This document shows, piece after piece, positions 4,643 through 18,410 of a DNA stretch of 54,865 bases. Below the pieces are notes generated by a model, which made no database searches, was not told where the DNA came from, and saw nothing but the letters and a program-made list of their open reading frames with translations. Origin of the DNA: an uncultured Candidatus Cloacimonadota bacterium (GTDB lineage: Bacteria; Cloacimonadota; Cloacimonadia; Cloacimonadales; TCS61); contig CAZOCS010000002.1 of the NCBI GenBank assembly GCA_964578365.1, positions 1 through 54,865 on the forward strand, given 5' to 3'. Made by a program: the position numbers and the translations under genes. Numbering within the stretch: the first letter of the stretch is position 1; every line of letters starts with the position of its first letter.

Positions 4643-5789
4643 TTTTCATGGAGAATTTTTTATTCAAGGAAATATCGCCTGCGCAGAAGCTGCGCTTTCG
4701 GCAGGTTGCGGATTTTTTGGCGGATATCCTATAACTCCTGCTTCAGAAATAGCAGAAAGGATGGCACTTAGATTGCCGCAACTGGATGGAGTATTTATTC
4801 AATTTGAAGATGAGATAGCCTCTATGGCCTCCATACTCGGAGCGTCATGGGCAGGAGCGAAATCCATGACGGCAAGTTCAGGTCCGGGTATTTCATTAAT
4901 GTTAGAAAACATTGGTTTAGGAATGATGATGGAAGTACCTTGTGTGATAGTGAATGTGCAAAGAGGTTCACCATCTACAGGATTGCCAACAAGCTGGGGT
5001 CAATCTGATATTATGCAGGCCCGTTGGGGCTCACATGGTGATTACGGATCAATCTCTTTAGCTCCCAAATCACCTCAGGAGTATTACGATCTTACAGTTG
5101 TTGCATTCAATTTAGCAGAGAAATACAGACTTCCTGTTTTTGTAATGTCAGATGCAATAGTAGGACATATGACAGAAAAAGTACTTATACCACCTGTAGA
5201 AGAATTAGAAATTATTGAACGAAAATATACAAAGAAAAAACCGGGTAACTATAATCCTTATACAATTGAACCAGGGCAATGGGTGCCGGATTTTGCAAAA
5301 GCCGGAGACGGATATCTTTACCATTCAACAGGGCTCACACATGATGAACGCGGATATCCTGATATGAGTGAGAAATGTCATGTGAATCTTGTGAATAGAC
5401 TATTAGATAAAATTAATAAAAACGCAGATGACATTATCATGTTAGAAGAAAGAGATACTGAAGAAGCAGATGTGATCGTTATTTCATTTGGTATCACTTC
5501 CAGAACAGTGATCCCTGCTATAGTAGAAGCCAAAAAGAAAGGAATAAAGGTTGGCTATCTACGGTTAATAACAGTTTGGCCTTTCCCCGAAAAGCGCATT
5601 AGAGAACTCTCTAAGAAAATTGGTGGATTTGTTGTGCCGGAAATTAATATGGGACAAATAGTTTTGGAAGTAGAGCGTTGTTCCGGAGGTAATTGCAAAG
5701 TTATTTCACTTCCACATCCGGGAGGAGGCTTGCACAAAACCAAGGATGTTGTAAAAGCGATACAGGAGGCAGCTGATGCAAGACAATAG
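4629..5789 (+). CDS. 2-oxoacid:ferredoxin oxidoreductase set 2, alpha subunit
   Basis: 386 aa from ATG 4629 (AGGAGG 7 nt upstream). The 4536 start in the ORF track would overlap the delta gene by about 100 nt. FFGGYPITPASEI, SSGPGISLM and RGSPSTGLPT align along the whole length with the set 1 alpha subunit. Confidence 0.9.
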   Translation: MKKSNFHGEFFIQGNIACAEAALSAGCGFFGGYPITPASEIAERMALRLPQLDGVFIQFEDEIASMASILGASWAGAKSMTASSGPGISLMLENIGLGMMMEVPCVIVNVQRGSPSTGLPTSWGQSDIMQARWGSHGDYGSISLAPKSPQEYYDLTVVAFNLAEKYRLPVFVMSDAIVGHMTEKVLIPPVEELEIIERKYTKKKPGNYNPYTIEPGQWVPDFAKAGDGYLYHSTGLTHDERGYPDMSEKCHVNLVNRLLDKINKNADDIIMLEERDTEEADVIVISFGITSRTVIPAIVEAKKKGIKVGYLRLITVWPFPEKRIRELSKKIGGFVVPEINMGQIVLEVERCSGGNCKVISLPHPGGGLHKTKDVVKAIQEAADARQ

Positions 5790-6669
5790 TATAATCCCTG
5801 TACATCCTGAAGAAAATGATCTTAGAATGGATAGAATGCCTCACATCTGGTGTTCCGGTTGCGGATTAGGGATGATCGTTTCTGCATATATGAAAGGAGT
5901 GAAGCAAGCCGGGATCTCTGCCAAAAATGCTGCAGTTGTTTCCGGAATAGGATGTACCGGACGTGTAGCGGGTTATGTTAAGTTAGATTCATATCACACA
6001 ACTCACGGAAGAGCTATTCCCTTTGCAACAGGTTTAAAATTGGCCAATAGAAAGCTGAACGTGGCTGTAATTTCAGGTGATGGAGATCTTTTTGCAATTG
6101 GTGGAAACCATCTGATCCATGCTGCCCGAAGAAACGTAGATTTAAATGTAATATGCGTTAATAATTTCATTTACGGAATGACAGGTGGACAAAATGCACC
6201 AACTACTCCATTAGAAGCATACAGCTCTACAGCTCCATACGGAAACTATGAACAACCATTCAATCTTGTGGGAATGGCATCCGCTGCCGGAGCTTCTTAT
6301 GTTGCTCGTTGGACTTCAGCTCACACAAAAAGACTCACCGATTCAATTGCAGAGGGTATCAGCAAGCCTGGATTCAGCTTCATTGAAGTTGTATCACCTT
6401 GTCCAACTGTGTTCGCACGGAAAAATAAAGGTGGATCAGGACTGGATTTACTACAACAGTATTTGAAGAGATCAAAGATAGATCATACAGCTGATCCGAC
6501 TAAAATCCCATTAGACATGTCAAACGACATTATTTGCGGAGTGTTCCAAAATGAAGATAAGCCTACTTTCTGGGAAAATGTACAAAAAGGTACAGAAAGA
6601 AAAGTAAAAAAAACTTTAGAGTATAAAGTTACCAAAAGAAAAATGACCGGAAAGAGAGGTTTGAAATGA
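5776..6669 (+). CDS. 2-oxoacid:ferredoxin oxidoreductase set 2, beta subunit (TPP-binding)
   Basis: 297 aa. WCSGCGLG. VISGDGDLFAIGGNHLIHAARRNVDLNVICVNNFIYGMTGGQ. AGGAGG RBS. Overlaps the alpha stop. Confidence 0.9.
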   Translation: MQDNSIIPVHPEENDLRMDRMPHIWCSGCGLGMIVSAYMKGVKQAGISAKNAAVVSGIGCTGRVAGYVKLDSYHTTHGRAIPFATGLKLANRKLNVAVISGDGDLFAIGGNHLIHAARRNVDLNVICVNNFIYGMTGGQNAPTTPLEAYSSTAPYGNYEQPFNLVGMASAAGASYVARWTSAHTKRLTDSIAEGISKPGFSFIEVVSPCPTVFARKNKGGSGLDLLQQYLKRSKIDHTADPTKIPLDMSNDIICGVFQNEDKPTFWENVQKGTERKVKKTLEYKVTKRKMTGKRGLK

Positions 6670-7202
6670 GCAATAGAAATATTAAAATATCAGGTTTTGG
6701 TGGGCAGGGCGTTATTTTATCATCTTATATAACGGGTAAAGCTGCATCAATTTTTGATGGAATGAATGCTTCTATGACACAAGCCTACGGACCTGAAGCC
6801 AGGGGGGGAGCATGTAGTGCTCAGGTAGTAATTTCTTCTGATGAAGTTGATTATCCATTGGTTGATTCTGCAGATGTTTTGATCGCTCTTTCTCAAGAAG
6901 GTTATGATAAGTTTCTTTCGATTCTCAAGCCTGATGGAATTCTATGTTATGATGAAGATCTGGTAAAGGTGCTCCAATCTCACAATGGGATCATTGCAAA
7001 GAAGATTCCTGCGACCCGTATAGCCGAAGATCTTGGAAAAAAGATCGTTGCAAATATTGTAATGCTTGGTTTTGCGGTTGCTCAAGCAAATATCACTTCT
7101 TTTGAAGGAATGAGAGAAGCTATCTCGGAGTCCGTTCCCAAAAAATTCTTAGATTTGAATTTAAAAGCCTATCAGACGGGCTACGATCATAAAGGAGATT
7201 GA
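6666..7202 (+). CDS. 2-oxoacid:ferredoxin oxidoreductase set 2, gamma subunit
   Basis: 178 aa. ISGFGGQGVILSS and AYGPEARGG motifs. Overlaps the beta stop (ATGA). Ends in TGA 1 nt before the hdrC start. Confidence 0.9.
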   Translation: MSNRNIKISGFGGQGVILSSYITGKAASIFDGMNASMTQAYGPEARGGACSAQVVISSDEVDYPLVDSADVLIALSQEGYDKFLSILKPDGILCYDEDLVKVLQSHNGIIAKKIPATRIAEDLGKKIVANIVMLGFAVAQANITSFEGMREAISESVPKKFLDLNLKAYQTGYDHKGD

Positions 7203-7203: not shown

Positions 7204-7611
7204 ATGTTTATAGAAATTTCCAAAAACGATATTAATAATGAATTAGTAAGAAAAATTCATGATCTTTCCGGACAGAACGTGTTTGATTGCTACCAGTGCG
7301 GAAATTGCTCTTCCGGCTGTCCTGTTGTAGAATACATGGATATCACCCCTAACCAGGTATTACGGCTTTCCCAATATGGAGCTGTCGACAGCATTCTGAA
7401 TAGTGAGACAATCTGGGTTTGTTCAACTTGTCTGCAATGTTCTACTCGCTGTCCTAAAGGAATAGATGTTGCAAGAGTGATGGAAGCCTTAAGAACAGTT
7501 AATTTGCGAGATGGAATTGGTGTGGTTGATCCTAAACATCTGGAAAATGAAAACGAAGAAGAATTGCCACCCATACTTTTGGTGTGTGCAATGCGAAAAC
7601 TTACGGGTTGA
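7204..7611 (+). CDS. hdrC: Heterodisulfide reductase subunit C-like 2x[4Fe-4S] protein
   Basis: 135 aa. CYQCGNCSSGCP and CSTCLQCSTRCP. Sits next to hdrB and hdrA. Confidence 0.85.
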   Translation: MFIEISKNDINNELVRKIHDLSGQNVFDCYQCGNCSSGCPVVEYMDITPNQVLRLSQYGAVDSILNSETIWVCSTCLQCSTRCPKGIDVARVMEALRTVNLRDGIGVVDPKHLENENEEELPPILLVCAMRKLTG

Positions 7612-7627: not shown

Positions 7628-8506
7628 ATGAAATTACCATATTACCCCGGTTGTACACTTAAAGCGAATGCTAAGCATTTTGAGGATTCAGCTCAGGCAG
7701 CAATGGAAAAACTAGATTTTCAATTGGAAGAAATGAAGGATTGGGTTTGTTGCGGAACGGTATTCTCAATGACCAGTGATGACCTGATGCTGCAGCTCTC
7801 TTCTATTCGAAATCTATTACGAGCAGAAAAACAAGACCTAAAAGAATTAGTTACACTTTGCAGTATGTGCTACAATACATTAAAGCGTTCAAAAGATTTT
7901 GTCGAAGGAGATCCTGATAATCTGGAAAAGGTGAACAATTTTATGTATATGGAAGAGGCGGACTACAAAGGTCAGGTAGAAATATATCATCTTCTAACAA
8001 TTTTACGAGATCGTATAAAATTTGAAAACATAAGATCACAGGTAACAAATCCACTAAAATCACTCAAGCTAGGTGCATATTATGGTTGTTTACTGGTTCG
8101 TCCGCAAGAATATGCAATTGATGATTTTGAAGCACCTACAATTATGGAAGATCTGGTAGAAAATCTGGGAGCTGAATCCATAGAATTCCAGTTCAAATTG
8201 GAATGTTGTGGAGCTTATCAGACACTTACAAAAAAAGATATCAGTGTGAAAAGAGCATATGAGATTCTTGATTCTGCACAAAAAGCTGACTGTGAAGCGA
8301 TAATTACAAGTTGTCCCCTATGTGCTTATAATTTAGATTTCATGCAAAAAGAGATCGAAAAAGAATATGTGGAATTTAAGAAAATTCCAATCTTTTATTT
8401 TACTGAGCTTATGGCAATTGCGCTGGGAGCTGGCTGGAATAGCGACTGGGCTAAATTGCATGATGTAGATCCTGAACCATTATTACGAGAAAAGCAATTG
8501 ATCTAA
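7628..8506 (+). CDS. hdrB: Heterodisulfide reductase subunit B-like protein (two CCG domains)
   Basis: 292 aa. Two CCG-domain signatures: YPGC...WVCCG...CSMC and YYGC...ECCGA...CPLC. Confidence 0.85.
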   Translation: MKLPYYPGCTLKANAKHFEDSAQAAMEKLDFQLEEMKDWVCCGTVFSMTSDDLMLQLSSIRNLLRAEKQDLKELVTLCSMCYNTLKRSKDFVEGDPDNLEKVNNFMYMEEADYKGQVEIYHLLTILRDRIKFENIRSQVTNPLKSLKLGAYYGCLLVRPQEYAIDDFEAPTIMEDLVENLGAESIEFQFKLECCGAYQTLTKKDISVKRAYEILDSAQKADCEAIITSCPLCAYNLDFMQKEIEKEYVEFKKIPIFYFTELMAIALGAGWNSDWAKLHDVDPEPLLREKQLI

Positions 8507-8515: not shown

Positions 8516-10462
8516 ATGAAAAGAATCGGAGTATTTATTTGTCATTGCGGTGTAAATATTGCCGGCACCGTTGATGTTGAACAACTTACAGAAAAACTAG
8601 CTGATTATCCGGGAGTTGCCCATATCGAGAATTACATGTTCATGTGTTCTGATCCAGGGCAAAACATTATTAAAAAAGCAATAAAGGATCATAAATTGGA
8701 TAGTGTTGTGGTGGCAGCCTGTTCACCAACTCTACATGAATCCACTTTCCAAAATGCTGTTTCTGAAGTTGACATTAACAAATATCAACTGGAAATTGGA
8801 AATATTCGTGAGCAGTGTAGCTGGGTTCATAGTAACAAAGAAGAGGGAACCAGAAAAGCAGAACTTATCATCAAAACTGCAGTGGAAAAAGCAAAACTGA
8901 ATCAATCGCTTGAACCGGTTTCAGCTCCGCTCACAAAACGAGTTCTTATTATTGGTGGTGGAATTGCAGGAATTCAAGCTGCTTTGGATATTGCAGATGG
9001 TGGCTACGAAGTTATCATGGTTGAAAAGAAACCATCAGTTGGTGGTCACATGATCCAACTCTCCGAAACTTTCCCAACTCTAGACTGTTCGCAATGTATT
9101 CTAACTCCCAAAATGGTCCAGCTTGGAAAGCACAAAAACATTAAACTTTATGTAAATAGTGAAATTGATGAGATCAGCGGATTCATGGGGAATTTCAAAG
9201 CAACCATCAAACGTAAACCGCAATATGTAGATCCTGAAATTTGCACTCTTTGTGATGATTGCACAAATGCTTGTCCTATTGTTGTTCCAAGTGAATACGA
9301 TGAAGGACTGGCTTACCGCAAAGCTATCTATGTTCCATTCCCGCAGGCTATACCCGCTTCCTATACAATAGACACAGAAAACTGTTTGGGATTTGATCCG
9401 ATTGCCTGTGGTGAATGCAAAAAAGCCTGTCTTGCAGAAGCAATTGATTATGATAAAAAGCCTGATACATTCGTTGAAGATATTGGTGCTGTGATCGTAG
9501 CTACCGGTTATGATCTGTATCCGGTGGAAAATATTCCTGAATATGGTTATGGAAAATATCCTGATGTGTTGAATGGATTACAGTTTGAGAGGATACTCTC
9601 AGCAACCGGACCAACAGGTGGTGAAATGTTGCGTCCCTCTGATGGGAAAATTCCTAAAGAGATCGTATTCATACAGTGTTCCGGTTCACGTGATCCCGAA
9701 CGACATAATCCATATTGTTCTAAGATATGCTGTATGTACACCTTAAAACATGCTAAACTTTACAAACATAAAGTTCACGACGGTCAACCTTACATTTTCT
9801 ACATAGATATTCGTTCAGGTGGAAAGAGATATGAGGAGTTTATCCAGGAAGGTGTTTCGGAAGACGGCATTGTTTACATACGTGGTAAAGTGGCCAAGAT
9901 ATATAAAAAGGGTGACAAAATGATAGTGCACGGTATGGATACACTTACCGGGCACAAAGTAAAGATCGAAGCAGATATGGTTGTTCTGGCTCAATCTATA
10001 GTTCCCAGTGAGGGAGCTGATAAACTTTTCAAAACGCTAAAACTGGGTACTGATAGTGATGGTTTCTTGAGCGAAGCACATCCAAAGTTAAGACCATTGG
10101 AGAGTTTACAATCCGGTTTCTATCTGGCAGGAGCAGGCCAGGGGCCAAAAGACATTCCCGAAGCTGTTTCTCAAGCTTCCGGAGCAGCTGCCAAGGTTTT
10201 AGCTTTGATGTCTAATGATGAAGTGATGCACGAACCGATCATAGCAACTGTTGATGAAAATATGTGCTCCGGATGCAGTATCTGCATCGGGACATGTCCT
10301 TATGGAGCGAGAGAATTAGATGAAGACAAGATAGCGATTGTGAACGAGATTTTGTGTGAAGGTTGTGGTGCCTGCATTAGTGCGTGTCCATCGGGTGCTT
10401 CTCAACAAAAGAACTTGACCGATGATCAGATCATGAACATGATAAATGTAATAATAAATTAA
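8516..10462 (+). CDS. hdrA: Heterodisulfide reductase subunit A-like FAD/FeS flavoprotein (bifurcating-type)
   Basis: 648 aa. N-terminal Cys cluster (FICHCGVNI). FAD fold VLIIGGGIAGIQAALDIADGGYEVIMVEKKPSVGGHM. Ferredoxin motifs CTLCDDCTNACP, CGECKKAC, CSGCSICIGTCP, CEGCGACISACP. Confidence 0.9.
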   Translation: MKRIGVFICHCGVNIAGTVDVEQLTEKLADYPGVAHIENYMFMCSDPGQNIIKKAIKDHKLDSVVVAACSPTLHESTFQNAVSEVDINKYQLEIGNIREQCSWVHSNKEEGTRKAELIIKTAVEKAKLNQSLEPVSAPLTKRVLIIGGGIAGIQAALDIADGGYEVIMVEKKPSVGGHMIQLSETFPTLDCSQCILTPKMVQLGKHKNIKLYVNSEIDEISGFMGNFKATIKRKPQYVDPEICTLCDDCTNACPIVVPSEYDEGLAYRKAIYVPFPQAIPASYTIDTENCLGFDPIACGECKKACLAEAIDYDKKPDTFVEDIGAVIVATGYDLYPVENIPEYGYGKYPDVLNGLQFERILSATGPTGGEMLRPSDGKIPKEIVFIQCSGSRDPERHNPYCSKICCMYTLKHAKLYKHKVHDGQPYIFYIDIRSGGKRYEEFIQEGVSEDGIVYIRGKVAKIYKKGDKMIVHGMDTLTGHKVKIEADMVVLAQSIVPSEGADKLFKTLKLGTDSDGFLSEAHPKLRPLESLQSGFYLAGAGQGPKDIPEAVSQASGAAAKVLALMSNDEVMHEPIIATVDENMCSGCSICIGTCPYGARELDEDKIAIVNEILCEGCGACISACPSGASQQKNLTDDQIMNMINVIIN

Positions 10463-10475: not shown

Positions 10476-10901
10476 ATGAGAAAATTTGAACCAAAGATTG
10501 TTTGTTTTCTTTGTAAATGGTGTACATATGCAGGTGCAGATCTAGCGGGAACATCGCGGCAGCAATATCCACCCAATGGTGTGGTCATAAAAACACTTTG
10601 TTCTTCCAGGATAGATCCGGAACACATTTTATATGCCTTCCAACAAGGAAGTGATGGTGTTTTCATCGGGGGTTGTCATCCTGGTGATTGCCATTATCAA
10701 TCAGGAAATTACAAAACAAAAAGAAGAGTATTACTTCTACAAAGTATGATCAAGCAATTGGGTCTGGATTCAAAAAGGCTTCGGCTGGAATGGATTTCTG
10801 CCAGTGAAGGAAACAAATTTGCTAGTACAATGAAAGAATTCACTGAAACAATTCGCAATTTAGGACCCATTCCCAAATTGGATAATAGAGGAGGAGAATA
10901 G
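10476..10901 (+). CDS. mvhD: MvhD/FlpD-type hydrogenase-to-Hdr electron-transfer subunit
   Basis: 141 aa. KIVCFLCKWCTYAGADLAG...IKTLCSSRIDPEHILYAFQQGSDGVFIGGCHPGDCHY. Confidence 0.9.
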   Translation: MRKFEPKIVCFLCKWCTYAGADLAGTSRQQYPPNGVVIKTLCSSRIDPEHILYAFQQGSDGVFIGGCHPGDCHYQSGNYKTKRRVLLLQSMIKQLGLDSKRLRLEWISASEGNKFASTMKEFTETIRNLGPIPKLDNRGGE

Positions 10902-10904: not shown

Positions 10905-11591
10905 ATGAGTGACAAAAGAGAAATGATAGACATCTATATTGGAGGAGAATTATTTCAGGTTCCTGAAGGCTCAACCATAATTTCCGCGATGGAATATGCG
11001 GGTTTCCAGCTAAAAAAGGGAGTTGGATGTCGTGAGGGTTATTGTGGTGCCTGCGCCACGGTTTATAGAGAAAAAGGAGATTATAAATTGAAGGGCGGTT
11101 TAGCTTGCCAAACAGTTGTAACAGATGGAATGGCCGTTGCTATGATCCCATTTGTTCCTGCTGAAAAACCAACTTATGATCTAGAAGAGCTCGAAGCTGA
11201 TGTGAGCACTTTCACCAAATTGTTCCCTACAGTATTCCGCTGTGTTTCCTGCAATACTTGCACAAAAGCTTGTCCACAGGAAATTCAAGTGATGGATTAT
11301 ATTCAAGCGATAATTCGTGGAGATATCGAACGCGCTGCTAACCTGTCTTTCGATTGTATTCGATGTGGACTCTGTGCTCTGCGCTGTCCAGCTGAGATCG
11401 TGCAATATAACAATGCCATCCTGGCTCGTCGATTGTATGCCAAATATTTGGCTCCTAGAAGCCCTGAATTGGAAGCCAGATTGGAAGAGTTGAAGGATAA
11501 AAAGTATGATAAAGAAATTATAGAATTGAAAAAAATGCCCAAAGATAAACTTTCCGAGAAGTATTACAGTCGGGAAATTAAAATTTCTTAA
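10905..11591 (+). CDS. Iron-sulfur subunit: N-terminal [2Fe-2S] ferredoxin fold plus two complete [4Fe-4S] motifs (FrdB/SdhB-like or HdrC-like)
   Basis: 228 aa. CREGYCGAC...C (Cx4Cx2C then a distal Cys). CVSCNTCTKACP and CIRCGLCALRCP. AGGAGGAG RBS. Immediately followed by the flavoprotein gene. Confidence 0.75.
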   Translation: MSDKREMIDIYIGGELFQVPEGSTIISAMEYAGFQLKKGVGCREGYCGACATVYREKGDYKLKGGLACQTVVTDGMAVAMIPFVPAEKPTYDLEELEADVSTFTKLFPTVFRCVSCNTCTKACPQEIQVMDYIQAIIRGDIERAANLSFDCIRCGLCALRCPAEIVQYNNAILARRLYAKYLAPRSPELEARLEELKDKKYDKEIIELKKMPKDKLSEKYYSREIKIS

Positions 11592-11604
11592 GCAGGAGAG
11601 AAAA

Positions 11605-13275
11605 ATGTATCCAGAATATATGATGGAATCGATCAAGATGGTCGAAAAGACCCGACCACAGCGTTTGGAACTTGCCAAAAAACATGGGAAAAAAGTTTTT
11701 CCTGGTATGACGGAACAGGAGAGGCAAGATGTTTTAGACAACAATCATCCCGATTATCAAAGTGATGCACTCAAGGAATTGAGAATCGGACCAAATAAAG
11801 GCGATAAGATGGTAAATGAAGTGGTTGATGTAATGGAGTCATACCCCCGTAATCACCCTGACACATTCGACCTGAAGAAAATAGATATAGAAACAGACGT
11901 ACTTATCATTGGAGCTGGTTCTGCCGGATTATCTGCAGCACTAGAAGCTTCAGATAGTAAGGCATCTGTAATGTTAATAACCAAGCTTCGTCTGGGAGAT
12001 TCTAATTCGATGATGGCTCAAGGTGGAATCCAGGCAGCCGATCAATTGGATGATAATCCGGTTTTACATTATCTTGATGTAATCGGTGGAGGTCACTTTG
12101 ACAACAAACCTGAATTGGTGGAAGCACTTGTAAAAGATGCAGCTCCATCCATTAAATGGTTAGAGGAACTCGGAGTAATGTTCGATAAAAACGATGATGG
12201 TTCGATGATGGTGAAATCCGGAGGTGGAACGTGTCGCAATAGAATGCATTCCGCTCGAGATTATACCGGAGCAGCTATATGCCGTGTCCTGCGTGATGAA
12301 GTAACCAACCGCCCGGATAAGATCAAGTATCATGAATACACTGCTGCTACAGAACTTATTCTGGATGACAAAGGAAATTGTGCCGGAGCGATCCTTTATC
12401 ATCTGGAAAACAAACAATATAGCATTGTGAAAGCTAAAACTGTGATAATGGCTACAGGTGGTTTCGGACGCTTACATATTCGTGGTTATGAAACATCAAA
12501 TCATTATGGAGCAACTGCTGATGGGCTGGTAATGGGCTATCGTGCCGGCGCAAAACTGATGTATATGGATTCGGTACAATATCATCCAACTGGTGCAGTT
12601 TTCCCGGAACAGATCGTTGGCTTCCTTTGCACAGAAAAAATAAGAGCATTAGGTGCGCAACCTGTCAATAAAGATGGGGAGCTTTTTGTGTATCCTTTGG
12701 AACCCAGAGATATTGAAGCCTCAGCTTTTATTAGAGAATGCAATAATGGATTGGGAGTAGAAACTCCATCTGGATTGAAAGGTATCTGGCTTGATACGCC
12801 ACTTATAGATTTGATCAGTGGTGAAGGATCGATAGAAAAATTTCTTCCTGCTATGCTGCGCCAATACAAACGTTTTGATATAGATGTCCGCAAATATCCA
12901 ATGCTTGTTTATCCAACATTACATTATCAGAATGGAGGATTAGAGATCAATGTCGATGCCGAAACATCCATTCCCGGACTTTATGTAGCAGGAGAAGCTT
13001 CAGGTGGAATTCATGGAAGAAATCGCCTGATGGGAAATTCCCAGCTCGACATAATTGTTTTTGGACGACGAGCCGGAATTAATGCAGCAGCAAAAGTTAA
13101 AAAAGGTATTAAACTTGGCAAATTAAGTTTGGATCATGTAATAAAATATATTAAAGAAGTAGATTCAATTGGTATAGATAAAAAACAGGTATCTCCTGTA
13201 ATTCTTCCTGATTATATTCCGGATCATGTGAAAGCAAAACAACTTTCATCGGAATATCAAGGGAACTTACTCTAA
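11605..13275 (+). CDS. Fumarate reductase / succinate dehydrogenase-family flavoprotein (soluble, probably non-covalent FAD)
   Basis: 556 aa. DVLIIGAGSAGLSAA. SMMAQGGI with Asn134 (12004-12006) where SdhA/FrdA carry the flavinylated His. TEKIRALG (catalytic Arg region). VQYHPTG. YVAGEASGGIHGRNRLMGNSQLDIIVFGRRAG. About 95-aa N-terminal extension before the Rossmann fold. Confidence 0.8.
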   Translation: MYPEYMMESIKMVEKTRPQRLELAKKHGKKVFPGMTEQERQDVLDNNHPDYQSDALKELRIGPNKGDKMVNEVVDVMESYPRNHPDTFDLKKIDIETDVLIIGAGSAGLSAALEASDSKASVMLITKLRLGDSNSMMAQGGIQAADQLDDNPVLHYLDVIGGGHFDNKPELVEALVKDAAPSIKWLEELGVMFDKNDDGSMMVKSGGGTCRNRMHSARDYTGAAICRVLRDEVTNRPDKIKYHEYTAATELILDDKGNCAGAILYHLENKQYSIVKAKTVIMATGGFGRLHIRGYETSNHYGATADGLVMGYRAGAKLMYMDSVQYHPTGAVFPEQIVGFLCTEKIRALGAQPVNKDGELFVYPLEPRDIEASAFIRECNNGLGVETPSGLKGIWLDTPLIDLISGEGSIEKFLPAMLRQYKRFDIDVRKYPMLVYPTLHYQNGGLEINVDAETSIPGLYVAGEASGGIHGRNRLMGNSQLDIIVFGRRAGINAAAKVKKGIKLGKLSLDHVIKYIKEVDSIGIDKKQVSPVILPDYIPDHVKAKQLSSEYQGNLL

Positions 13276-13290
13276 TATTTGGAGGGTTTG

Positions 13291-14298
13291 ATGGCAAAAC
13301 CTAAAGTTGCCTTTTATTGGTGTGCATCTTGTGGTGGCTGTGAAGAAGCGATCGTAGATCTGAACGAAGATATTTTAAAAGTGGCAGATCTGGTTAATAT
13401 TGTTTTCTGGCCATGCGCCATGGATTTTAAATATGAGGATGTGCGCAAAATGAAAGATGGAGAGATCACTGTCTCTTTCATTAATGGAGCAATTCGTACC
13501 GAAGAAAACGAAGAAATGGCAAAATTATTACGCAAAAAATCGCAGTTTGTTATTTCTTTTGGTGCCTGCTCTCACATGGGTGGAATTCCCGGATTAGGTA
13601 ATTTCTGGGATAAGGAAAGCATCTTCGAATCTTCTTATGGAGAATCTTGCCCATCTGTATTGAATCCTGATGGGATTGTACCTCTGGTTAGATCAAAAGT
13701 ATCTGAAGGTGAGCTTACTCTACCGGAATTTCATGATACTGTAAGAAGTCTGGATCAAGTAGTAGATGTAGATTATTATCTACCCGGTTGCTCTCCAGAA
13801 CCATACCTTACTATGAATGCAATTGTCAAATTGCTGTCAGGTGATCTTCCTGCCAAAGGAACAGTGTTGGCTCCGGCAAAATCAATGTGTGATATCTGCA
13901 GCAGAAGTGAAACAAAACCTGAAAAACTCAGTATTAAAGAGATCAAACGCGTAGCAACAGTACAACCAGATCCAGAAGAATGTTTCCTGGCTCAGGGCAT
14001 TATTTGTATGGGACCGGTTACCAGGTTTGGCTGCAAGGAAGAAGGAGATGGTCGCTGCATCAGTGCCAATATGCCATGCCGTGGTTGTTATGGACCACCC
14101 CCAGGCGTTAAAGATGTCGGTGCCAAAATGGTTTCGGCTCTGGCTTCCATTGTTGGATTGGAAGGTGAAGAAGAAATGAGTGATAATGATGTGCAAAGCC
14201 TGATGGATCAAATTCCCGATCCAGCAGGAACATTCTATCGTTTTTCCCTGCCAATTTCAATGATGAGAAGAAAACGTATGACAAGTGAGGAAAACTAA
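13291..14298 (+). CDS. mvhG: [NiFe] hydrogenase small subunit, cytoplasmic Mvh-type
   Basis: 335 aa from ATG 13291 (GGAGGG at 13281-13286). FYWCASCGGCEE proximal-cluster motif. C-terminal Cys-rich region (CDICS, CMGPVTRFGC, CISANMPCRGC). No twin-arginine signal. Confidence 0.85.
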   Translation: MAKPKVAFYWCASCGGCEEAIVDLNEDILKVADLVNIVFWPCAMDFKYEDVRKMKDGEITVSFINGAIRTEENEEMAKLLRKKSQFVISFGACSHMGGIPGLGNFWDKESIFESSYGESCPSVLNPDGIVPLVRSKVSEGELTLPEFHDTVRSLDQVVDVDYYLPGCSPEPYLTMNAIVKLLSGDLPAKGTVLAPAKSMCDICSRSETKPEKLSIKEIKRVATVQPDPEECFLAQGIICMGPVTRFGCKEEGDGRCISANMPCRGCYGPPPGVKDVGAKMVSALASIVGLEGEEEMSDNDVQSLMDQIPDPAGTFYRFSLPISMMRRKRMTSEEN

Positions 14299-14299
14299 G

Positions 14300-15763
14300 A
14301 TGTCAAAAAAAATAACTATAGATCCGATAACTAGATTGGAAGGTCATGGTAAAGTTGAGATATTCCTGGATGAGAAGGGGAATGCTACAAATGCATATTT
14401 ACAGGTTCCCGAACTTAAAGGATTTGAACAATTTTGCATAGGCAGACCTGTAGAAGAACTTCCTAGAATCACTCCGCGAATTTGCGGGGTTTGTCCTACT
14501 ACGCATCATATGGCTGCTACAAAAGCAGTTGATGCGGTTTATAATGTTGTTCCTACAGATACTGCTATCAAAGTACGCCGTGTGATTTATGATGCGTTCA
14601 TGATGGAAGATCATCTTCTGCATTTTTTCTTTTTAGGTGGACCTGATTTTGTGGTTGGTCCTGATGCACCTCCCGGGGAAAGAAACATACTTGGAGTTGT
14701 TGGAAAAGTTGGTGTTGAAATTGGAAAAAAGGTTATCGATATTCGTCGTAGATTACGGTCTGTTATCACAACATTGAGCGGAAGAGTAATTCATCCTGTG
14801 AGCGGACTTCCCGGTGGAGTTTCCAAAGGTATAACAGAAGAACAGAGAGTAGAATTTCTACAAATTGCTAAAGATAGTGTGGAATTTGCCAAGTTTACTT
14901 TGAAAGTTTTTGAAGATATTGTACTTAAAAATAAAACTTATGTAGATCTAATTGTAGGTGATATCTACAAACATAAAACTTATTACATGGGAATGGTGGA
15001 TGAGAACAATCATCCCGATTTTTATGATGGTAAGATCCGGGTTGTTGATCCCGATGGAAAAGAAATAGCCAAGTTTGCTCCTAAAGACTACCTGGATCAT
15101 ATTGTAGAACGTGTAGAACCGTGGAGCTATATAAAATTTCCATATTTAAAAAACGTAGGTTGGAAAGGTTTTGTGGACGGGAAAGACAGCGGTGTTTACC
15201 GAGTTGCACCCTTAGCAAGATTGAATGTAGCAGATGGAATGTCTACACCTCTAGCTCAAGCAGAATTTGAAAAAATGTTCTCAATTCTGGGTGGGAAACC
15301 TGCCCATAATACACTGGCTTTTCACTGGGCCAGATTAATAGAAGTAATGTTTGCTGCCGAACATATGGTTAAACTATTGAAAGACAAATCCATAACCAGC
15401 CCGGATATTCGTCGTATTCCTACAGAAACACCAAAAGAAGGAGTGGGAATTGTTGAAGCTCCCAGAGGTACTCTCATTCATCATTACAAAACAGATGAAC
15501 AGGGAATGGTTACGGGTGTGAATCTGATCGTGGCAACTGTAGGCAACTCTGCAGCTATGTCTATGTCTATAGCCAAAGCTGCTCAGAATCTTATAAAAAA
15601 TGGAGAAGTTAACGATAGTATTTTAAATATGGTAGAAATGGCCTTCCGTCCTTATGATCCTTGTTTGGCTTGTGCCACTCATTCACTTCCAGGTAAAATG
15701 CCACTGATGGTGAACGTATATGACAAGGACAAAAATAAACTTAAAACGATTACAAGGGATTAA
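14300..15763 (+). CDS. mvhA: [NiFe] hydrogenase large subunit, Mvh-type (group 3-like)
   Basis: 487 aa from ATG 14300. ITRLEGHG. N-terminal Ni-binding RICGVCPTTHH. C-terminal DPCLACATH followed by a 26-aa extension, the expected endopeptidase substrate. Confidence 0.9.
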   Translation: MSKKITIDPITRLEGHGKVEIFLDEKGNATNAYLQVPELKGFEQFCIGRPVEELPRITPRICGVCPTTHHMAATKAVDAVYNVVPTDTAIKVRRVIYDAFMMEDHLLHFFFLGGPDFVVGPDAPPGERNILGVVGKVGVEIGKKVIDIRRRLRSVITTLSGRVIHPVSGLPGGVSKGITEEQRVEFLQIAKDSVEFAKFTLKVFEDIVLKNKTYVDLIVGDIYKHKTYYMGMVDENNHPDFYDGKIRVVDPDGKEIAKFAPKDYLDHIVERVEPWSYIKFPYLKNVGWKGFVDGKDSGVYRVAPLARLNVADGMSTPLAQAEFEKMFSILGGKPAHNTLAFHWARLIEVMFAAEHMVKLLKDKSITSPDIRRIPTETPKEGVGIVEAPRGTLIHHYKTDEQGMVTGVNLIVATVGNSAAMSMSIAKAAQNLIKNGEVNDSILNMVEMAFRPYDPCLACATHSLPGKMPLMVNVYDKDKNKLKTITRD

Positions 15764-15809
15764 TAAAATTTGCGATGAAAGCAAAAAAGCAGGAAATTTA
15801 GAGAAATTG

Positions 15810-16262
15810 ATGAGTACTTTAGTTCTTGGTTTAGGAAACACTATTTTGTCTGATGATGGAGTAGGAATTCATATAGCATTTGAGATAAAAAAGAAGTGTG
15901 ATAATATCGATGTATTGGAAGCCAGTGCCGCCGGTTTTCGCGTGATCGACGAAATAATAGGTTATGATAAGCTCATCCTGATAGATTCTATCAAAACAGG
16001 TAAAGTTGAATCAGGAGGATTGCACAGATTCACTTTTGATGAATTCAGCAGAACAATGCATCATACGTCTCCACATGACATTAGCTTGTTCGAAGCATTT
16101 GATATAATGAAAAAAGAAAATGCTGATCTACCTACAAATATTAAAGTTTATGCTGTTGAAGTGGAAGACACATCCACTTTTTCAGAAAATTGCACACTCA
16201 AAGTTGCAGAGGTTATTCCCAAAGTAGCAGAGATCGTAATAATGGAAAATAATTTAACATAG
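15810..16262 (+). CDS. Hydrogenase maturation endopeptidase (HycI/FrhD family)
   Basis: 150 aa from ATG 15810. LVLGLGNTILSDDGVGIH start typical of the family. Lies directly downstream of the large subunit. Confidence 0.8.
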   Translation: MSTLVLGLGNTILSDDGVGIHIAFEIKKKCDNIDVLEASAAGFRVIDEIIGYDKLILIDSIKTGKVESGGLHRFTFDEFSRTMHHTSPHDISLFEAFDIMKKENADLPTNIKVYAVEVEDTSTFSENCTLKVAEVIPKVAEIVIMENNLT

Positions 16263-16275: not shown

Positions 16276-17445
16276 ATGAACATTCATGAATATCAGGCGA
16301 AACAAATTTTTGCCGATCAGAATATACCAATTCAAGATGGAATAATGATAGAAGATGCTGCGGAGGCAAGAAATGCAGCTAATAAAATAGGTGGTAATTT
16401 CTGGGTTGTAAAAGCACAGATCCATGCTGGTGGACGAGGCAAGGGTGGCGGAGTAAAATTTGCTAAAACTTTGGACGAAGTAGAAAAATATGCTTCTGAT
16501 ATTTTAGGAATGACGCTAATTACACATCAAACCGGTCCTGCAGGAAGATTAGTTAAGAAGATATTTATCGCAGGTGGCGTGGATATAAAAAAAGAATATT
16601 ACCTGGGAATAGTTTTAGATAGAACATCTGAAATGCCGGTTATGATGGCTTCCACTGAAGGTGGAATGGAAATCGAAAAAGTAGCATCCGAAACACCAGA
16701 GAAGATCATCAAAGTAGGAATCGATCCGCTAATTGGTTTCAGAGCTTTCCATGCCGGAAAGCTGTCTTCCGGATTAAACCTTTCCAAAGAACAAATGAAG
16801 CACTTTGGTAAATTTGCAAAAGCTTTGTATGATGTATATTCAAATAATGATGCCAGCCTTATAGAAATAAATCCGCTGGTCCTTACTGCAGAAGATACTT
16901 TTTTAGCTTTGGATGCTAAAATGGGATTCGATGATAACGCTTTGTATCGTCATGCTGATCTTAGAGAAATGCTTGATCTGGACGAAGAAGAACCTACTGA
17001 ACTGGAAGCTGGTAAATACGGATTAAGCTATGTGAAACTGGATGGTAATGTTGGCTGCATGGTAAATGGTGCCGGATTGGCAATGTCTACCATGGACATC
17101 ATTAAATTGAATGGTGGTGATCCTGCAAACTTTTTAGATGTTGGTGGTGTAGCTAGCGCAGAAACAGTTGCAAAGGGTTTTGAAATTATATTGCAAGATA
17201 AAAATGTTAAGGCGATCTTTGTAAACATCTTCGGTGGAATCGTACGATGTGATCGTATTGCCAATGGTATTTTGGAAGCGACTAAAAAAATAGATGTAAA
17301 GGTTCCGCTTATTGTACGTTTGAACGGTACAAATTCTGAAGAAGCAGCAGAAATTCTCAAAGCAGCAAATATTGAGAATATAATTACAGCTAAAGACCTG
17401 GCCGATGGAGCTCAAAAAGCTGTTAATGCTGCAAGGGGTGTGTAA
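16276..17445 (+). CDS. sucC: Succinyl-CoA synthetase beta subunit
   Basis: 389 aa. [42 protein letters not shown]. Confidence 0.95.
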
Positions 17446-17447
17446 GC

Positions 17448-18317
17448 ATGAGTATATTAGTAAATAAAGATTCAAAAGTTATAGTGCAGGGTTTCACAGG
17501 AAAGGAAGGAACTTTCCATGCTCAGCAATGTATCGAATATGGTACTAATATTGTAGGTGGGGTTACACCGGGCAAAGGTGGGCAAATCCATCTGGGAAAA
17601 CCCGTTTTTAATTCTGTTCAAGATGCAATAGAAGAAGTTAAGGCAGATGTAAGCATTATTTTTGTACCACCAGCTTTCTCTGCAGACGCAGTGATGGAAG
17701 CAGCTGAGGCAGGCATTAAAGTGATCGTTTGTATTACAGAAGGCATCCCTGTTTCAGATATGATGATAGCAAAAAAATATGTTAAAAATAAGGGAGCAAT
17801 TTTAATTGGTCCTAATTGTCCGGGAATTATTAGTGCAGAGGAAACCAAAATTGGTATTATGCCGGGAGTAGTATTTAAAAAAGGGGATGTTGGAGTTATA
17901 TCAAAATCTGGAACCCTAACATACGAAGCAGCAAATCAGGTTGTTGAAGCAGGTTTAGGAATAACTACAGCTATTGGAATTGGCGGTGATCCAATTATTG
18001 GAACAACATATATCGATCTTTTAGAACTTTTTGAAAATGATTCTGAAACAAAAGCAATTGTTATGATCGGAGAAATTGGTGGAGATCTGGAGATACAAGC
18101 TGCTAAATATATAAGAAAGAATATTACGAAACCTGTTGTAGCATTTATTGCAGGACAAACCGCTCCTAAGGGAAAACGAATGGGCCACGCCGGTGCGATA
18201 ATTGCCGGCAGCAAAGGAACAGCCAAAGAGAAAATGGATGCTTTGGAAGCAGCTGATGTTCATGTTGTTGCTTCACCTGCTGATATTGGCAAGAAAGTAA
18301 AAGAGGTTCTTGGGTAA
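17448..18317 (+). CDS. sucD: Succinyl-CoA synthetase alpha subunit
   Basis: 289 aa. [22 protein letters not shown], phosphohistidine loop MGHAGAII. Confidence 0.95.
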
Positions 18318-18410
18318 TTTGTCACTATCCTACCTGTTGCTTGAAGTGTGAAAGCAGGATTGAAGGATAATAAAAGAATAAGAAATTTAAATAATTAATG
18401 AGGTGATCAA

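What the first reader, a model, noticed from the sequence alone, without database searches (positions are those of the whole stretch)
10905..13275. Atypical soluble Frd/Sdh-like module: no flavinylation His, 95-aa N-terminal extension, FeS partner with two complete 4Fe-4S motifs, no membrane anchor
SEEN: the flavoprotein has DSNSMMAQGGI where SdhA/FrdA have RSHTV(A/S)AQGG, so Asn134 (12004-12006) replaces the His that carries covalent 8-alpha-FAD. The catalytic-region motifs TEKIRALG, VQYHPTG and HGRNRLMGNS are retained. About 95 residues (MYPEYMMESIKMVEKTRPQRLELAKKHGKK...) precede the DVLIIGAGSAG fold, and the start is well supported (AGGAGA RBS, 13 nt after the previous stop). The FeS partner has a Cx4Cx2C...C [2Fe-2S] motif plus two full Cx2Cx2Cx3CP motifs, whereas classical SdhB/FrdB has an incomplete third motif for the [3Fe-4S] cluster. 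No SdhC/D-like hydrophobic genes are adjacent. ESTABLISHED: covalent flavinylation raises the FAD potential and is needed for efficient succinate oxidation. Non-covalent FAD is typical of soluble fumarate reductases and L-aspartate oxidase. INFERENCE: this favours the fumarate-reducing direction, with electrons delivered from Hdr/MvhD FeS chains rather than quinol. The N-terminal extension may be the docking element.
Basis: partly seen in the sequence, partly recalled or inferred. Interest (0 to 1): 0.75.

Follow-up and report, generated by a model that had tools for sequence, protein, structure and literature searches.

The report
Hydrogenase/Hdr-linked soluble fumarate reductase module
Two adjacent genes encode a membrane-free fumarate reductase, most likely fed by a hydrogen-oxidising, electron-splitting Hdr complex within a reverse-TCA operon; genome papers have already described this arrangement, but nobody has tested it biochemically.

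Summary
The 556-aa flavoprotein has Asn134 where FrdA/SdhA have the flavinylation His. It keeps every fumarate-site residue, carries a 97-aa N-terminal extension and has only a short C-terminal tail. Its 228-aa FeS partner has one [2Fe-2S] and two complete [4Fe-4S] motifs. No membrane anchor lies in the tightly packed 18-gene operon.

These features are the norm of a large family (59-92% identity across many phyla). Asn134, the catalytic set and all 12 FeS cysteines are invariant. The pair is always adjacent, and 63 of 83 loci hold HdrABC/MvhD genes within 10 kb, often with 2-oxoacid:ferredoxin oxidoreductase. The donor module varies.

Best reading: a soluble fumarate reductase acts as the high-potential acceptor of a bifurcating H2-oxidising Mvh-Hdr complex. 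The reduced ferredoxin feeds the 2-oxoacid synthase of a reductive TCA branch.

This cluster type is already in the genome literature as "thiol:fumarate reductase TfrAB" (Williams 2021; Rubin-Blum 2019). I found no biochemical study. That annotation is imprecise: the pair fails the TfrA score cut-off and the FeS subunit lacks TfrB's thiol-oxidising CCG domains.

It is a new member of a predicted but uncharacterised kind; moderate interest.

The parts
10905..11591 (+). FeS subunit (228 aa): an SdhB/FrdB-like [2Fe-2S] N-domain, a compact 2x[4Fe-4S] domain and a charged helical C-terminal tail. It has no CCG domain.
   Evidence: Pfam Fer2/Fer2_4 plus Fer4 dicluster families. The 12 Cys are invariant in 76/76, and C42/47/50/68 align with FrdB C58/63/66/78. 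The dicluster part is most like the polyferredoxin modules FwdF and MvhB. Matches to SdhB/FrdB are only weak, E 3e-5 to 2e-3.
11605..13275 (+). Flavoprotein (556 aa) of the fumarate reductase superfamily. It has Asn134 at the flavinylation site, a 97-aa N-terminal extension, a complete fumarate site and a truncated C-terminus.
   Evidence: PF00890 over residues 98-479. PDB alignments. Invariant residues. AlphaFold2 pTM 0.78, and Foldseek top hits are E. coli FrdA and M. smegmatis Sdh1 SdhA.
12004..12006 (+). Asn134 codon, at the position of the His that carries 8-alpha-FAD in FrdA/SdhA.
   Evidence: Asn in 83/83 family members.
7204..7611 (+). HdrC-like 2x[4Fe-4S] subunit
   Evidence: Fer4_8/Fer4_17 and the NCBIfam HdrC models, below cut-offs. 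Eight Cys in two CxxCxxCxxxC motifs.
7628..8506 (+). HdrB-like subunit with two intact CCG motifs
   Evidence: PF02754 in two copies. Full-length match to methanogen HdrB chains 8rvu_b and 5odc_B. Cys at 9/41/42/78/81 and 154/193/194/229/232. It scores about equally against HdrB (170 bits) and against SdhE, the CCG subunit of methylmenaquinol:fumarate reductase (162 bits).
8516..10462 (+). HdrA, the FAD- and FeS-containing electron-bifurcating subunit
   Evidence: 710 bits over the full length to 8rvu_a, and 697 bits to 5odc_A. NCBIfam HdrA2 model 813 bits.
10476..10901 (+). MvhD ([2Fe-2S] connector between the hydrogenase and HdrA)
   Evidence: PF02662, 177 bits.
13279..15763 (+). MvhG and MvhA: small and large subunits of a group 3c-type cytoplasmic [NiFe] hydrogenase
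   Evidence: NCBIfam VhuG (185 bits) and VhuA (432 bits). The RICGVCPTTH and DPCLACATH motifs are visible in the translation.
15720..16262 (+). Hydrogenase maturation protease
   Evidence: TIGR00072, 95 bits, above its cut-off.
4367..7202 (+). Four-subunit 2-oxoacid:ferredoxin oxidoreductase: delta 4367-4642, alpha ~4629-5789, beta 5776-6669, gamma 6666-7202. It is the proposed consumer of the reduced ferredoxin.
   Evidence: NCBIfam PRK08659 alpha, 547 bits against a cut-off of 411. The 2-oxoglutarate-specific models score below their cut-offs. Delta ORF.
16276..21293 (+). SucC, SucD, fumarate hydratase alpha and beta, and malic enzyme: the neighbouring steps of the C4 branch
   Evidence: NCBIfam SucC 570 bits and fumarate hydratase 417 bits, both above cut-offs. 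Malic-enzyme models score below their cut-offs.

Best explanation
Genes 10905-11591 and 11605-13275 encode the FeS and FAD subunits of a cytoplasmic, quinone-independent fumarate reductase. It serves as the high-potential terminal module of the MvhADG-HdrABC complex encoded around it.

Proposed electron path:
- H2 is oxidised by MvhAG, and electrons pass through MvhD to the bifurcating FAD of HdrA.
- One electron goes downhill through HdrC (and probably the HdrB clusters) into the [4Fe-4S]/[2Fe-2S] chain of the FeS subunit. From there it reaches the non-covalently bound FAD, where fumarate is reduced to succinate.
- The other electron goes uphill to ferredoxin.

Overall: 2 H2 + fumarate + Fd(ox) -> succinate + Fd(red) + 2 H+.

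The reduced ferredoxin is used by the co-encoded KorDABG for reductive carboxylation of succinyl-CoA. The operon (malic enzyme, fumarase, Frd, SucCD, Kor) therefore forms a reductive C4-to-C5 branch in which the exergonic step pays for the endergonic one.

Shown here: the sequence features, the family-wide invariance and the conserved neighbourhood.
Inferred: the substrate, the physical complex, the route through HdrB, bifurcation and the direction.
For: Enzyme type:
- Fumarate reductase fold and full catalytic set, invariant in 83/83.
- NadB-specific Glu121 is replaced by Gly in 82/83.
- Asn134 is invariant, so no 8-alpha-histidyl FAD.

FeS partner:
- The FeS gene lies directly upstream in all 78 loci that hold enough upstream DNA.
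- One relative is a natural FeS::flavoprotein fusion.

Link to Hdr:
- 63 of 83 loci have Hdr/MvhD genes within 10 kb; 55 have HdrB, 35 have Kor and 21 have the Mvh hydrogenase.
- This holds in at least three different gene orders: Cloacimonadota, Marinimicrobia/Fidelibacterota, and Betaproteobacteria/Gammaproteobacteria/Aminicenantes.
- The donor module changes while the pair stays. Mvh hydrogenase is here. Fer4_22 (Flx-type) proteins follow MvhD in Proteobacteria. A NuoF-like subunit partners a 45%-identical subfamily.

Window operon:
- HdrA, HdrB and MvhD are canonical.
- The frd pair sits between mvhD and mvhG in an operon with gaps of 3-13 nt around it and no membrane protein.

Thermodynamics (my calculation from standard potentials):
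- About -70 kJ per reaction with fumarate, against about -36 kJ with CoM-S-S-CoB.

Published proposals of the same idea from genomes: PMC6315080 (with its Supplementary Note 3), PMC8542988, PMC7282089 and PMC13147460.
Against: - There is no experimental evidence for any member. I found none in five literature searches, and a 2026 review still calls for verification.
- Twenty of 83 loci show no Hdr gene within 10 kb. Some of these sit on long contigs (L002, L012, L014, L015, L064), so the pair can evidently work with other partners.
- HdrB keeps both CCG motifs, which fits real disulfide chemistry (the thiol-shuttle rival).
- No complex model could be computed, so no cluster-to-cluster distances are known.
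- The FeS subunit model was poor (pLDDT 58).
- Kor substrate specificity is not established. Only the generic 2-oxoacid model passes its cut-off.
- No ATP-citrate lyase lies in the window, so a full reverse TCA cycle is not shown here.
Confidence: 0.55

Rival explanations
1. Split thiol:fumarate reductase with a diffusible carrier. Mvh-HdrABC reduces a disulfide: an unknown low-molecular-weight heterodisulfide, or a DsrC/TusA-like protein. The resulting thiols are re-oxidised to drive fumarate reduction, as CoM-SH and CoB-SH do in archaeal TfrAB.
For: - The best NCBIfam match of the flavoprotein is TfrA (317 bits).
- A genuine TfrA also lacks the His.
- HdrB keeps both CCG motifs.
- HdrC, HdrB and the FeS protein each match a different part of the TfrB model.
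- A TusA gene follows the pair in L003.
- This is the model drawn in PMC8542988 and offered as one option in PMC6315080.
Against: - The FeS subunit has no CCG domain, so the pair alone cannot oxidise thiols.
- The window holds a single HdrB. That one protein would have to serve both the disulfide-reducing and the thiol-oxidising side.
- From general knowledge, bacteria are not known to make CoM-S-S-CoB.
- No carrier gene lies in the window operon.
- The score is far below the TfrA cut-off of 718, and the match covers only positions 6-406 of the 546-position profile.
Confidence: 0.2
2. The pair is a stand-alone soluble fumarate reductase. It takes electrons from free reduced ferredoxin or another soluble donor. 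Its position next to Hdr/Mvh reflects co-regulation of a pathway, not a physical complex.
For: - Loci with the pair but no Hdr within 10 kb on long contigs: L002, L014 and L015 (pair plus malic enzyme only), L012 and L064.
- The related subfamily with a NuoF-like partner shows the pair can use other donors.
Against: - Hdr adjacency is kept across distant phyla despite rearranged gene orders.
- In the window the pair is inserted between mvhD and mvhG, two subunits of one complex, with gaps of 3 nt.
- Burning low-potential ferredoxin on fumarate would waste energy in an operon that also needs ferredoxin for Kor.
Confidence: 0.13
3. The module runs oxidatively as a succinate dehydrogenase. Electrons from succinate and from reduced ferredoxin (made by Kor) are confurcated to H2, as part of syntrophic amino-acid or propionate oxidation by a Cloacimonadota fermenter.
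For: - Cloacimonadota are usually described as fermenters or syntrophs, and propionate oxidation has been proposed for them (PMC12590816).
- The stoichiometry fits: one Fd(red) from Kor per succinate.
- All the enzymes in the operon are in principle reversible.
Against: - Non-covalent FAD. From established knowledge, E. coli FrdA His44 variants reduce fumarate but barely oxidise succinate.
- On my calculation the reaction is exergonic only below about 0.1 Pa H2, which is under the usual methanogenic H2 thresholds.
- The same module occurs in lithoautotrophic Proteobacteria, in reverse-TCA-type clusters (PMC6315080).
Confidence: 0.07
4. The substrate is not fumarate. The flavoprotein is an L-aspartate-oxidase-like enzyme, or a reductase for another unsaturated acid.
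For: - NadB shares the whole His/Arg set, so these residues alone do not separate fumarate reductase from NadB.
- The NCBIfam NadB model scores 264 bits, not far below TfrA at 317.
- The nearest clade in the tree is a group of ~400-aa proteins of unknown function.
Against: - Gly stands at the NadB Glu121 position.
- An obligatory FeS partner is present, which NadB lacks.
- Fumarase and succinyl-CoA synthetase genes lie in the same operon.
- The score is below the NadB cut-off of 453.
Confidence: 0.05

Closest known systems
'TfrAB' pairs in Hdr-linked reverse-TCA gene clusters: Ca. Celaenobacter (Cloacimonadota; Williams et al. 2021, PMC8542988); Ca. Endoriftia, the Escarpia symbiont and Thioflavicoccus mobilis (Rubin-Blum et al. 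2019, PMC6315080; Mitchell et al. 2024, PMC11636981)
   Same: - Same gene content. PMC8542988 describes TFR and OGOR genes clustered with fumarase, succinyl-CoA synthetase, Mvh [NiFe] hydrogenase and Hdr. That is the window's operon.
- The proteobacterial loci I fetched match the layout of PMC6315080: the pair, rubrerythrin, hdrCB, kor, hdrA, then the MvhD/FlxD gene and Fer4_22 (Flx-type) proteins.
   Different: - These are genome annotations only.
- I could not compare sequences with the published organisms directly, so identity of the family rests on layout.
- As far as I could find, those papers do not describe the Asn site, the N-terminal extension, the truncated C-terminus or the missing CCG domain.
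Archaeal thiol:fumarate reductase TfrAB (Methanothermobacter; Heim et al. 1998, cited from memory and through PMC6315080)
   Same: - Soluble, with no anchor.
- No His at the flavinylation site: a true TfrA, P0182, has Gly plus an inserted Cys.
- One [2Fe-2S] and two [4Fe-4S] motifs.
- It is the best-scoring curated model for the flavoprotein.
   Different: - The TfrA model scores 317 bits against a cut-off of 718, and only profile positions 6-406 of 546 match.
- TfrA has no N-terminal extension and has a ~140-aa C-terminal domain.
- TfrB (488-position model) carries the two CCG domains that oxidise the thiols. The 228-aa partner here has none.
MvhADG-HdrABC, the H2:CoM-S-S-CoB,ferredoxin oxidoreductase of methanogens (PDB 5odc, 8rvu)
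   Same: HdrA, HdrB, HdrC, MvhD, MvhG and MvhA are all present and collinear with the solved subunits.
   Different: - A bacterial host, with no known CoM-S-S-CoB.
- An Frd-like pair is inserted between mvhD and mvhG.
- The proposed high-potential acceptor is fumarate, not a heterodisulfide.
Membrane-bound quinol:fumarate reductase and succinate:quinone reductase (E. coli FrdABCD, SdhCDAB)
   Same: The flavoprotein fold and all substrate-binding and proton-transfer residues. The [2Fe-2S] domain of the FeS subunit aligns.
   Different: - No flavinylation His.
- No PF02910 C-terminal domain.
- A second complete [4Fe-4S] motif instead of the [3Fe-4S] motif.
- The dicluster domain is of polyferredoxin type.
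- No membrane subunits.
Five-subunit soluble NADH-dependent fumarate reductase of Hydrogenobacter thermophilus (Miura et al. 2008; paper not held, cited through PMC13147460 and from memory)
   Same: A soluble, quinone-independent, multi-subunit fumarate reductase serving the reductive TCA cycle. It is the only such enzyme with biochemistry.
   Different: - Its donor is NADH and bifurcation was not reported.
- Its genes are scattered.
- I could not compare sequences, so the relationship to this family is untested.
MetFV-HdrABC-MvhD methylene-tetrahydrofolate reductase complex of Moorella thermoacetica, and FlxABCD-HdrABC of sulfate reducers (from memory; Flx-Hdr also cited in PMC6315080 and PMC5947623)
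   Same: They set a precedent: the bacterial HdrABC-MvhD platform can be combined with different donor or acceptor modules.
   Different: The attached modules are different. In neither case is fumarate the acceptor.

Membership tests
Thiol:fumarate reductase TfrAB | Flavoprotein reaches the curated TfrA equivalog score (NF004900, cut-off 718 bits) over the full profile | tested here: not met
   317 bits, covering profile positions 6-406 of 546. A true TfrA (P0182) scores 765 bits.
Thiol:fumarate reductase TfrAB | FeS subunit fused to two HdrB-like CCG domains, the thiol-oxidation site | tested here: not met
   The 228-aa protein has no PF02754 hit. The TfrB model matches with E 5e-9, the best stretch being residues 17-82.
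Thiol:fumarate reductase TfrAB | No His at the flavinylation site; one [2Fe-2S] and two [4Fe-4S] motifs | tested here: met
   Asn134 here; Gly in TfrA P0182. Cys motifs.
Thiol:fumarate reductase TfrAB | Fumarate reduction driven by CoM-SH plus CoB-SH | not testable with these tools
   Needs an enzyme assay.
Complex II type fumarate reductase / succinate dehydrogenase | His carrying covalent 8-alpha-FAD | tested here: not met
   Asn134, invariant in 83/83.
Complex II type fumarate reductase / succinate dehydrogenase | Dicarboxylate-binding and proton-transfer residues (FrdA H232, T234, E245, R248, R287, H355, R390) | tested here: met
   H327, T329, E344, R347, R368, H440, R474, all invariant.
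Complex II type fumarate reductase / succinate dehydrogenase | SdhB-type FeS subunit with a [3Fe-4S] motif, plus the flavoprotein C-terminal domain (PF02910) | tested here: not met
   Two full CxxCxxCxxxCP motifs. Fer2/Fer2_4 rather than SdhB-type Fer2_3, and no PF02910. Below every curated SdhA/FrdA cut-off.
Complex II type fumarate reductase / succinate dehydrogenase | Hydrophobic membrane anchor subunit(s) in the operon | tested here: not met
   No membrane-helix-like segment in any genuine product, and no room between the genes.
L-aspartate oxidase NadB | Curated NadB score (TIGR00551, cut-off 452.75), Glu121, and no FeS partner | tested here: not met
   263.6 bits. Gly at the Glu121 column in 82/83. 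FeS partner present in 78/78 informative loci.
MvhADG-HdrABC electron-bifurcating complex | Full-length HdrA, HdrB with two CCG motifs, HdrC, MvhD, and a [NiFe] hydrogenase large and small subunit encoded together | tested here: met
   The [NiFe] ligand motifs are visible.
MvhADG-HdrABC electron-bifurcating complex | Heterodisulfide as the high-potential acceptor; H2-dependent coupled ferredoxin reduction | not testable with these tools
   Needs biochemistry.
Hdr-linked soluble fumarate reductase of reverse-TCA clusters (genomic prediction, PMC6315080 / PMC8542988) | A two-gene Frd-like pair co-located with hdrABC/mvhD (or flxD) and a four-subunit 2-oxoacid:ferredoxin oxidoreductase | tested here: met
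   Window operon. The same association holds in 63/83 loci for Hdr and 35/83 for Kor.

The most novel reading that the evidence does not exclude
The operon may build one supercomplex, Mvh-Hdr-Frd and possibly Kor. It would be the first HdrA-based bifurcating enzyme with fumarate as the high-potential acceptor.
- HdrB would act as an electron relay to a docked Frd module, as CCG subunits may do in type E succinate dehydrogenases, rather than as a disulfide reductase.
- Low-potential electrons would be channelled directly to the 2-oxoacid synthase.
Probability: 0.3. Interest if true: 0.8.

Novelty: new member of a known kind. Interest (0 to 1): 0.45.

Why it matters
If the proposed mechanism holds, it would answer two questions about anaerobes without quinones and some lithoautotrophs. 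First, how do they reduce fumarate in a reductive TCA branch? Second, how do they obtain the low-potential ferredoxin that 2-oxoacid synthases need? The energy released by fumarate reduction would no longer be wasted. It would add a new acceptor, a C=C bond of a central metabolite, to the HdrA bifurcation platform.

There is also a practical point. At least 585 species-representative genomes carry this pair. [quoted passage not shown] The last name implies a thiol chemistry that the pair cannot perform on its own.

Tried and rejected
Rejected readings:
- NadB-like. Rejected on the score below cut-off, Gly at the Glu121 position, the FeS partner and the operon context.
- AprAB-like. No AprA family model appears among the 25 best NCBIfam matches shown (68 matched in all), and the full fumarate-binding set is present. 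No AprA sequence was aligned directly.
- True TfrAB membership. Rejected.

Tried without result:
- Pfam scans of the N-terminal extension, the flavoprotein C-terminal tail and the FeS tail at E<=10 found nothing.
- The AlphaFold2 model of the FeS subunit was too poor to use (pLDDT 58). I did not run a fold search on it.
- The flavoprotein model has low confidence around the FAD site (133-165, 192-220, 470-478). No coordinates are returned, so I could not see where the N-terminal extension packs.
- Miura 2008 and the Koendjbiharie 2019 preprint are not in the library. Whether the H. thermophilus and P. thermosuccinogenes enzymes belong to this family is therefore unverified.
- Cluster look-ups gave almost no organism names.
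- The neighbour-joining tree is crude. It uses corrected p-distances with 40 bootstraps, and the sister group has support in only 23 of 40.


Full report
**What is in the window**

The finding lies inside one long plus-strand operon. From the gene order is:
- KorD (4367-4642), KorA (~4629-5789), KorB, KorG
- HdrC (7204-7611), HdrB (7628-8506), HdrA (8516-10462), MvhD (10476-10901)
- the FeS protein (10905-11591) and the flavoprotein (11605-13275)
- MvhG, MvhA, a hydrogenase maturation protease
- SucC, SucD, fumarate hydratase alpha and beta, and a malic enzyme (to 21293)

From korA onward, gaps are at most 23 nt, with one exception of 93 nt; korD overlaps korA. No genuine product has a membrane-helix-like segment. 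A second four-subunit 2-oxoacid:ferredoxin oxidoreductase lies just upstream at 907-3812. The closest relatives come from Cloacimonadota MAGs.

**Checking the observation**

- Flavinylation site. HMMER alignments to solved SdhA/FrdA chains and a MAFFT alignment with E. coli FrdA, SdhA and NadB put Asn134 (12004-12006) in the column of the flavinylation His.
- Catalytic residues. FrdA H232, T234, E245, R248, R287, H355 and R390 correspond to H327, T329, E344, R347, R368, H440 and R474.
- N-terminal extension. The FAD-binding domain starts at residue 98. Residues 1-97 match no Pfam family. They are kept at full length in all homologues, and residues 1-20 are among the better conserved stretches. 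AlphaFold2 models them as ordered.
- Start codon. It has an AGGAGA ribosome-binding site and sits 13 nt after the FeS stop.
- FeS protein. It has Cx4Cx2C...C and two CxxCxxCxxxCP motifs.

- The flavoprotein lacks the usual C-terminal domain. Only 57 residues follow position 500, against 129-186 in E. coli NadB, SdhA and FrdA.
- The di-cluster part of the FeS protein resembles polyferredoxin modules (FwdF, MvhB) more than SdhB. Its [2Fe-2S] domain does align with FrdB and SdhB.

**These features define a large family**

A scan of one genome per GTDB species found at least 585 relatives. The best 80 are 59-92% identical over the full length. They come from Cloacimonadota, Marinimicrobia/Fidelibacterota, Delongbacteria, Aminicenantes/Acidobacteria, Myxococcales, Stahlbacteria, Beta- and Gammaproteobacteria (Gallionella, Sideroxydans, Sulfuricella, Hydrogenophilales) and a Rhodospirillales MAG.

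Asn134 and the seven catalytic residues are invariant in 83/83. The 12 cysteines are invariant in 76/76.

A search of 1.8 billion cluster representatives shows a steep drop in score. One representative of the same family scores 679 bits. Subfamilies at 43-47% identity that keep the N-terminal extension score 425-508 bits. Everything else is at about 35-41% identity.

In a neighbour-joining tree of the core domain the extension-bearing proteins form their own clade. They are about equally distant (36-38% identity) from NadB-like, TfrA-like and His-bearing Sdh/Frd proteins. A group of ~400-aa proteins is the sister in 23 of 40 bootstraps.

Asn at the His position is common among the non-covalent relatives.

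**Which curated families it fails to join**

The flavoprotein is below every curated cut-off:

| Model | Score (bits) | Cut-off (bits) |
|---|---|---|
| TfrA | 317 | 718 |
| SdhA/FrdA subfamily | 273 | 567 |
| NadB | 264 | 453 |

- A true TfrA (P0182, 765 bits) has Gly plus an inserted Cys at the His site. It has no N-terminal extension and carries a 140-residue C-terminal domain.
- From general knowledge, NadB's Glu121 binds the amino group of aspartate. It is Gly here in 82/83.
- The FeS protein lacks the CCG domains that make TfrB a thiol oxidase.

So 'thiol:fumarate reductase' is the nearest name, but it is not a correct membership.

**Context**

- The FeS gene lies directly upstream of the flavoprotein gene in all 78 loci with enough upstream DNA.
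- One relative is a natural fusion. FeS residues 7-218 are joined to flavoprotein residues 24-534.
- 63 of 83 loci carry Hdr/MvhD genes within 10 kb. 55 have HdrB, 35 have Kor and 21 have the Mvh hydrogenase.

Gene orders differ between lineages:

| Lineage | Gene order |
|---|---|
| Cloacimonadota (as in the window) | Kor-HdrCBA-MvhD-pair-MvhGA |
| Marinimicrobia | MvhGA-HdrCBA-MvhD-protease-pair-malic enzyme |
| Proteobacteria | pair-(rubrerythrin)-HdrCB-Kor-HdrA-MvhD, followed by Fer4_22 (Flx-type) proteins |
| Aminicenantes | HdrB-Kor-HdrA-MvhD-pair |

In the proteobacterial loci, malate dehydrogenase and PFOR lie upstream.

A 45%-identical subfamily in marine Gammaproteobacteria has FeS-flavoprotein-NuoF-like instead. 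A short relative without the extension has no FeS partner.

The picture is a conserved catalytic pair that plugs into interchangeable soluble donor modules, most often the HdrABC/MvhD platform. Some loci on long contigs lack Hdr nearby (L002, L012, L014, L015, L064), so the link is strong but not obligatory.

**The Hdr/Mvh part is canonical**

- HdrA matches the solved methanogen HdrA over its whole length (710 bits).
- HdrB matches methanogen HdrB over its whole length, with both CCG cysteine sets intact.
- MvhD, MvhG and MvhA have their signatures.
- HdrB scores about as well against SdhE, the CCG subunit of methylmenaquinol:fumarate reductase, as against methanogen HdrB (162 against 170 bits). 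This is a reminder that CCG proteins already partner Sdh/Frd dimers elsewhere.

**Mechanism**

The best-supported reading has these steps:
- MvhAG oxidises H2.
- HdrA bifurcates the electrons.
- The high-potential electron travels through HdrC, probably HdrB, and the FeS subunit to a non-covalent FAD that reduces fumarate.
- The low-potential electron reduces ferredoxin, which Kor uses.

I calculated the energetics from standard potentials: H+/H2 -414 mV, fumarate/succinate about +33 mV, ferredoxin about -500 mV. The reaction 2 H2 + fumarate + Fd(ox) yields about -70 kJ. With CoM-S-S-CoB (-140 mV) it yields about -36 kJ. The reverse reaction becomes feasible only below roughly 0.1 Pa H2. Together with the missing flavinylation His, this favours the reductive direction. 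From established knowledge, E. coli FrdA His44 variants keep fumarate reduction but lose succinate oxidation.

What is shown: sequence features, invariance and synteny. What is inferred: substrate, physical complex, route and bifurcation.

The main rival is a thiol/disulfide shuttle. It is weakened by the lack of CCG domains in the FeS subunit and by there being a single HdrB in the window. The intact CCG motifs of HdrB keep it alive.

**What was already known**

- Williams et al. 2021 (PMC8542988) describe this cluster in Ca. Celaenobacter. TFR and OGOR sit together with fumarase, succinyl-CoA synthetase, Mvh and Hdr. They propose an H2-driven reverse TCA cycle.
- Rubin-Blum et al. 2019 (PMC6315080) describe tfrAB interspersed with hdrABC-flxABCD and korABCD in tubeworm symbionts and Thioflavicoccus mobilis. 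They put forward both the shuttle model and the direct-bifurcation model.
- Mitchell et al. 2024 add co-expression data.
- A 2019 preprint, cited in PMC7282089, proposes a bifurcation-linked fumarate reductase in Pseudoclostridium thermosuccinogenes.
- A 2025 survey of Cloacimonadota reports the Mvh-Hdr complex in 'Clade B' but does not mention the embedded pair.
- A 2026 review still lists the idea as unverified.
- I found no biochemical or structural study.

**Verdict**

One fusion suggests the extension lies next to the FeS tail.

This is a new member of a kind already predicted from genomes but never characterised. What this analysis adds:
- the family-wide invariance of the diagnostic residues
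- the failure of TfrAB membership
- the polyferredoxin-like di-cluster domain
- the truncated C-terminus
- the fusion protein
- the interchangeable donor modules

Noticed in passing
window 4367-4642 (+): The KorD (delta) subunit of the Hdr-adjacent 2-oxoacid:ferredoxin oxidoreductase has CxxCxxCxxxCP as its first motif. Its second motif is CAFDGLCQSVCP, that is CxxDxxCxxxCP, with Asp where the second Cys is expected. This suggests a [3Fe-4S] cluster or an Asp-ligated cluster. The listed KorA ORF (TTG at 4536) probably starts at the ATG at 4629.
   Followed up: partly
window 907-3812 (+): A second four-subunit 2-oxoacid:ferredoxin oxidoreductase (delta 907-1224, alpha 1233-2411, beta 2413-3258, gamma 3258-3812) lies in tandem upstream of the Kor-Hdr-Frd operon. 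Both alpha subunits pass only the generic 2-oxoacid model, so which one is the 2-oxoglutarate enzyme is open.
   Followed up: partly
L062-L083 (for example L077 9217-21354, L063, L069): MAGs of Gallionella, Sideroxydans, Sulfuricella, Hydrogenophilales, Nitrosomonadales and some Gammaproteobacteria carry the same pair at about 60% identity. These lineages are known as Calvin-cycle lithoautotrophs. The layout is pair-rubrerythrin-HdrCB-Kor-HdrA-MvhD followed by Fer4_22 proteins, with malate dehydrogenase, PFOR and a citrate-lyase-like domain upstream. This is a reverse-TCA-type cluster like the one reported for tubeworm symbionts.
   Followed up: partly
L087 5250-7433 (protein P0122, 727 aa): A natural fusion of the FeS subunit to the flavoprotein, in an NCBI assembly (GCA_054283745.1). 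The first ~23 residues of the N-terminal extension are missing. There are no Hdr genes in the 5 kb upstream.
   Followed up: partly
L088-L090 7366-10891; L091 8001-10357: Two more distant subfamilies keep the N-terminal extension and the FeS partner. One, in marine Gammaproteobacteria, is followed by a NuoF-like NADH-binding subunit (Complex1_51K). The other, with the FeS gene downstream, includes a protein of Prochlorococcus sp. MIT 1201.
   Followed up: no
proteins P0182, P0201, P0217, P0219, P0226, P0232: Genuine TfrA-type proteins have Gly followed by an inserted Cys (GG-CT or SG-CT) at the position of the flavinylation His. I do not know whether this Cys has a role.
   Followed up: no
L092 5001-6236 (protein P0158): The ~400-aa relatives, which are the nearest clade to this family, lack both terminal additions and the FeS partner. 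This one sits between an ATP-grasp enzyme and a Lyase_1 (fumarase/aspartase family) gene in a sugar-modification-like cluster. Its function is unknown.
   Followed up: no
window 21371-22243 (-) and 22630-24330 (+): The protein at 22630-24330 has a type IX secretion C-terminal sorting domain by Pfam. The C-terminus of the protein at 21371-22243 looks like one by eye only and was not scanned. This would fit an FCB-group-like cell envelope.
   Followed up: no
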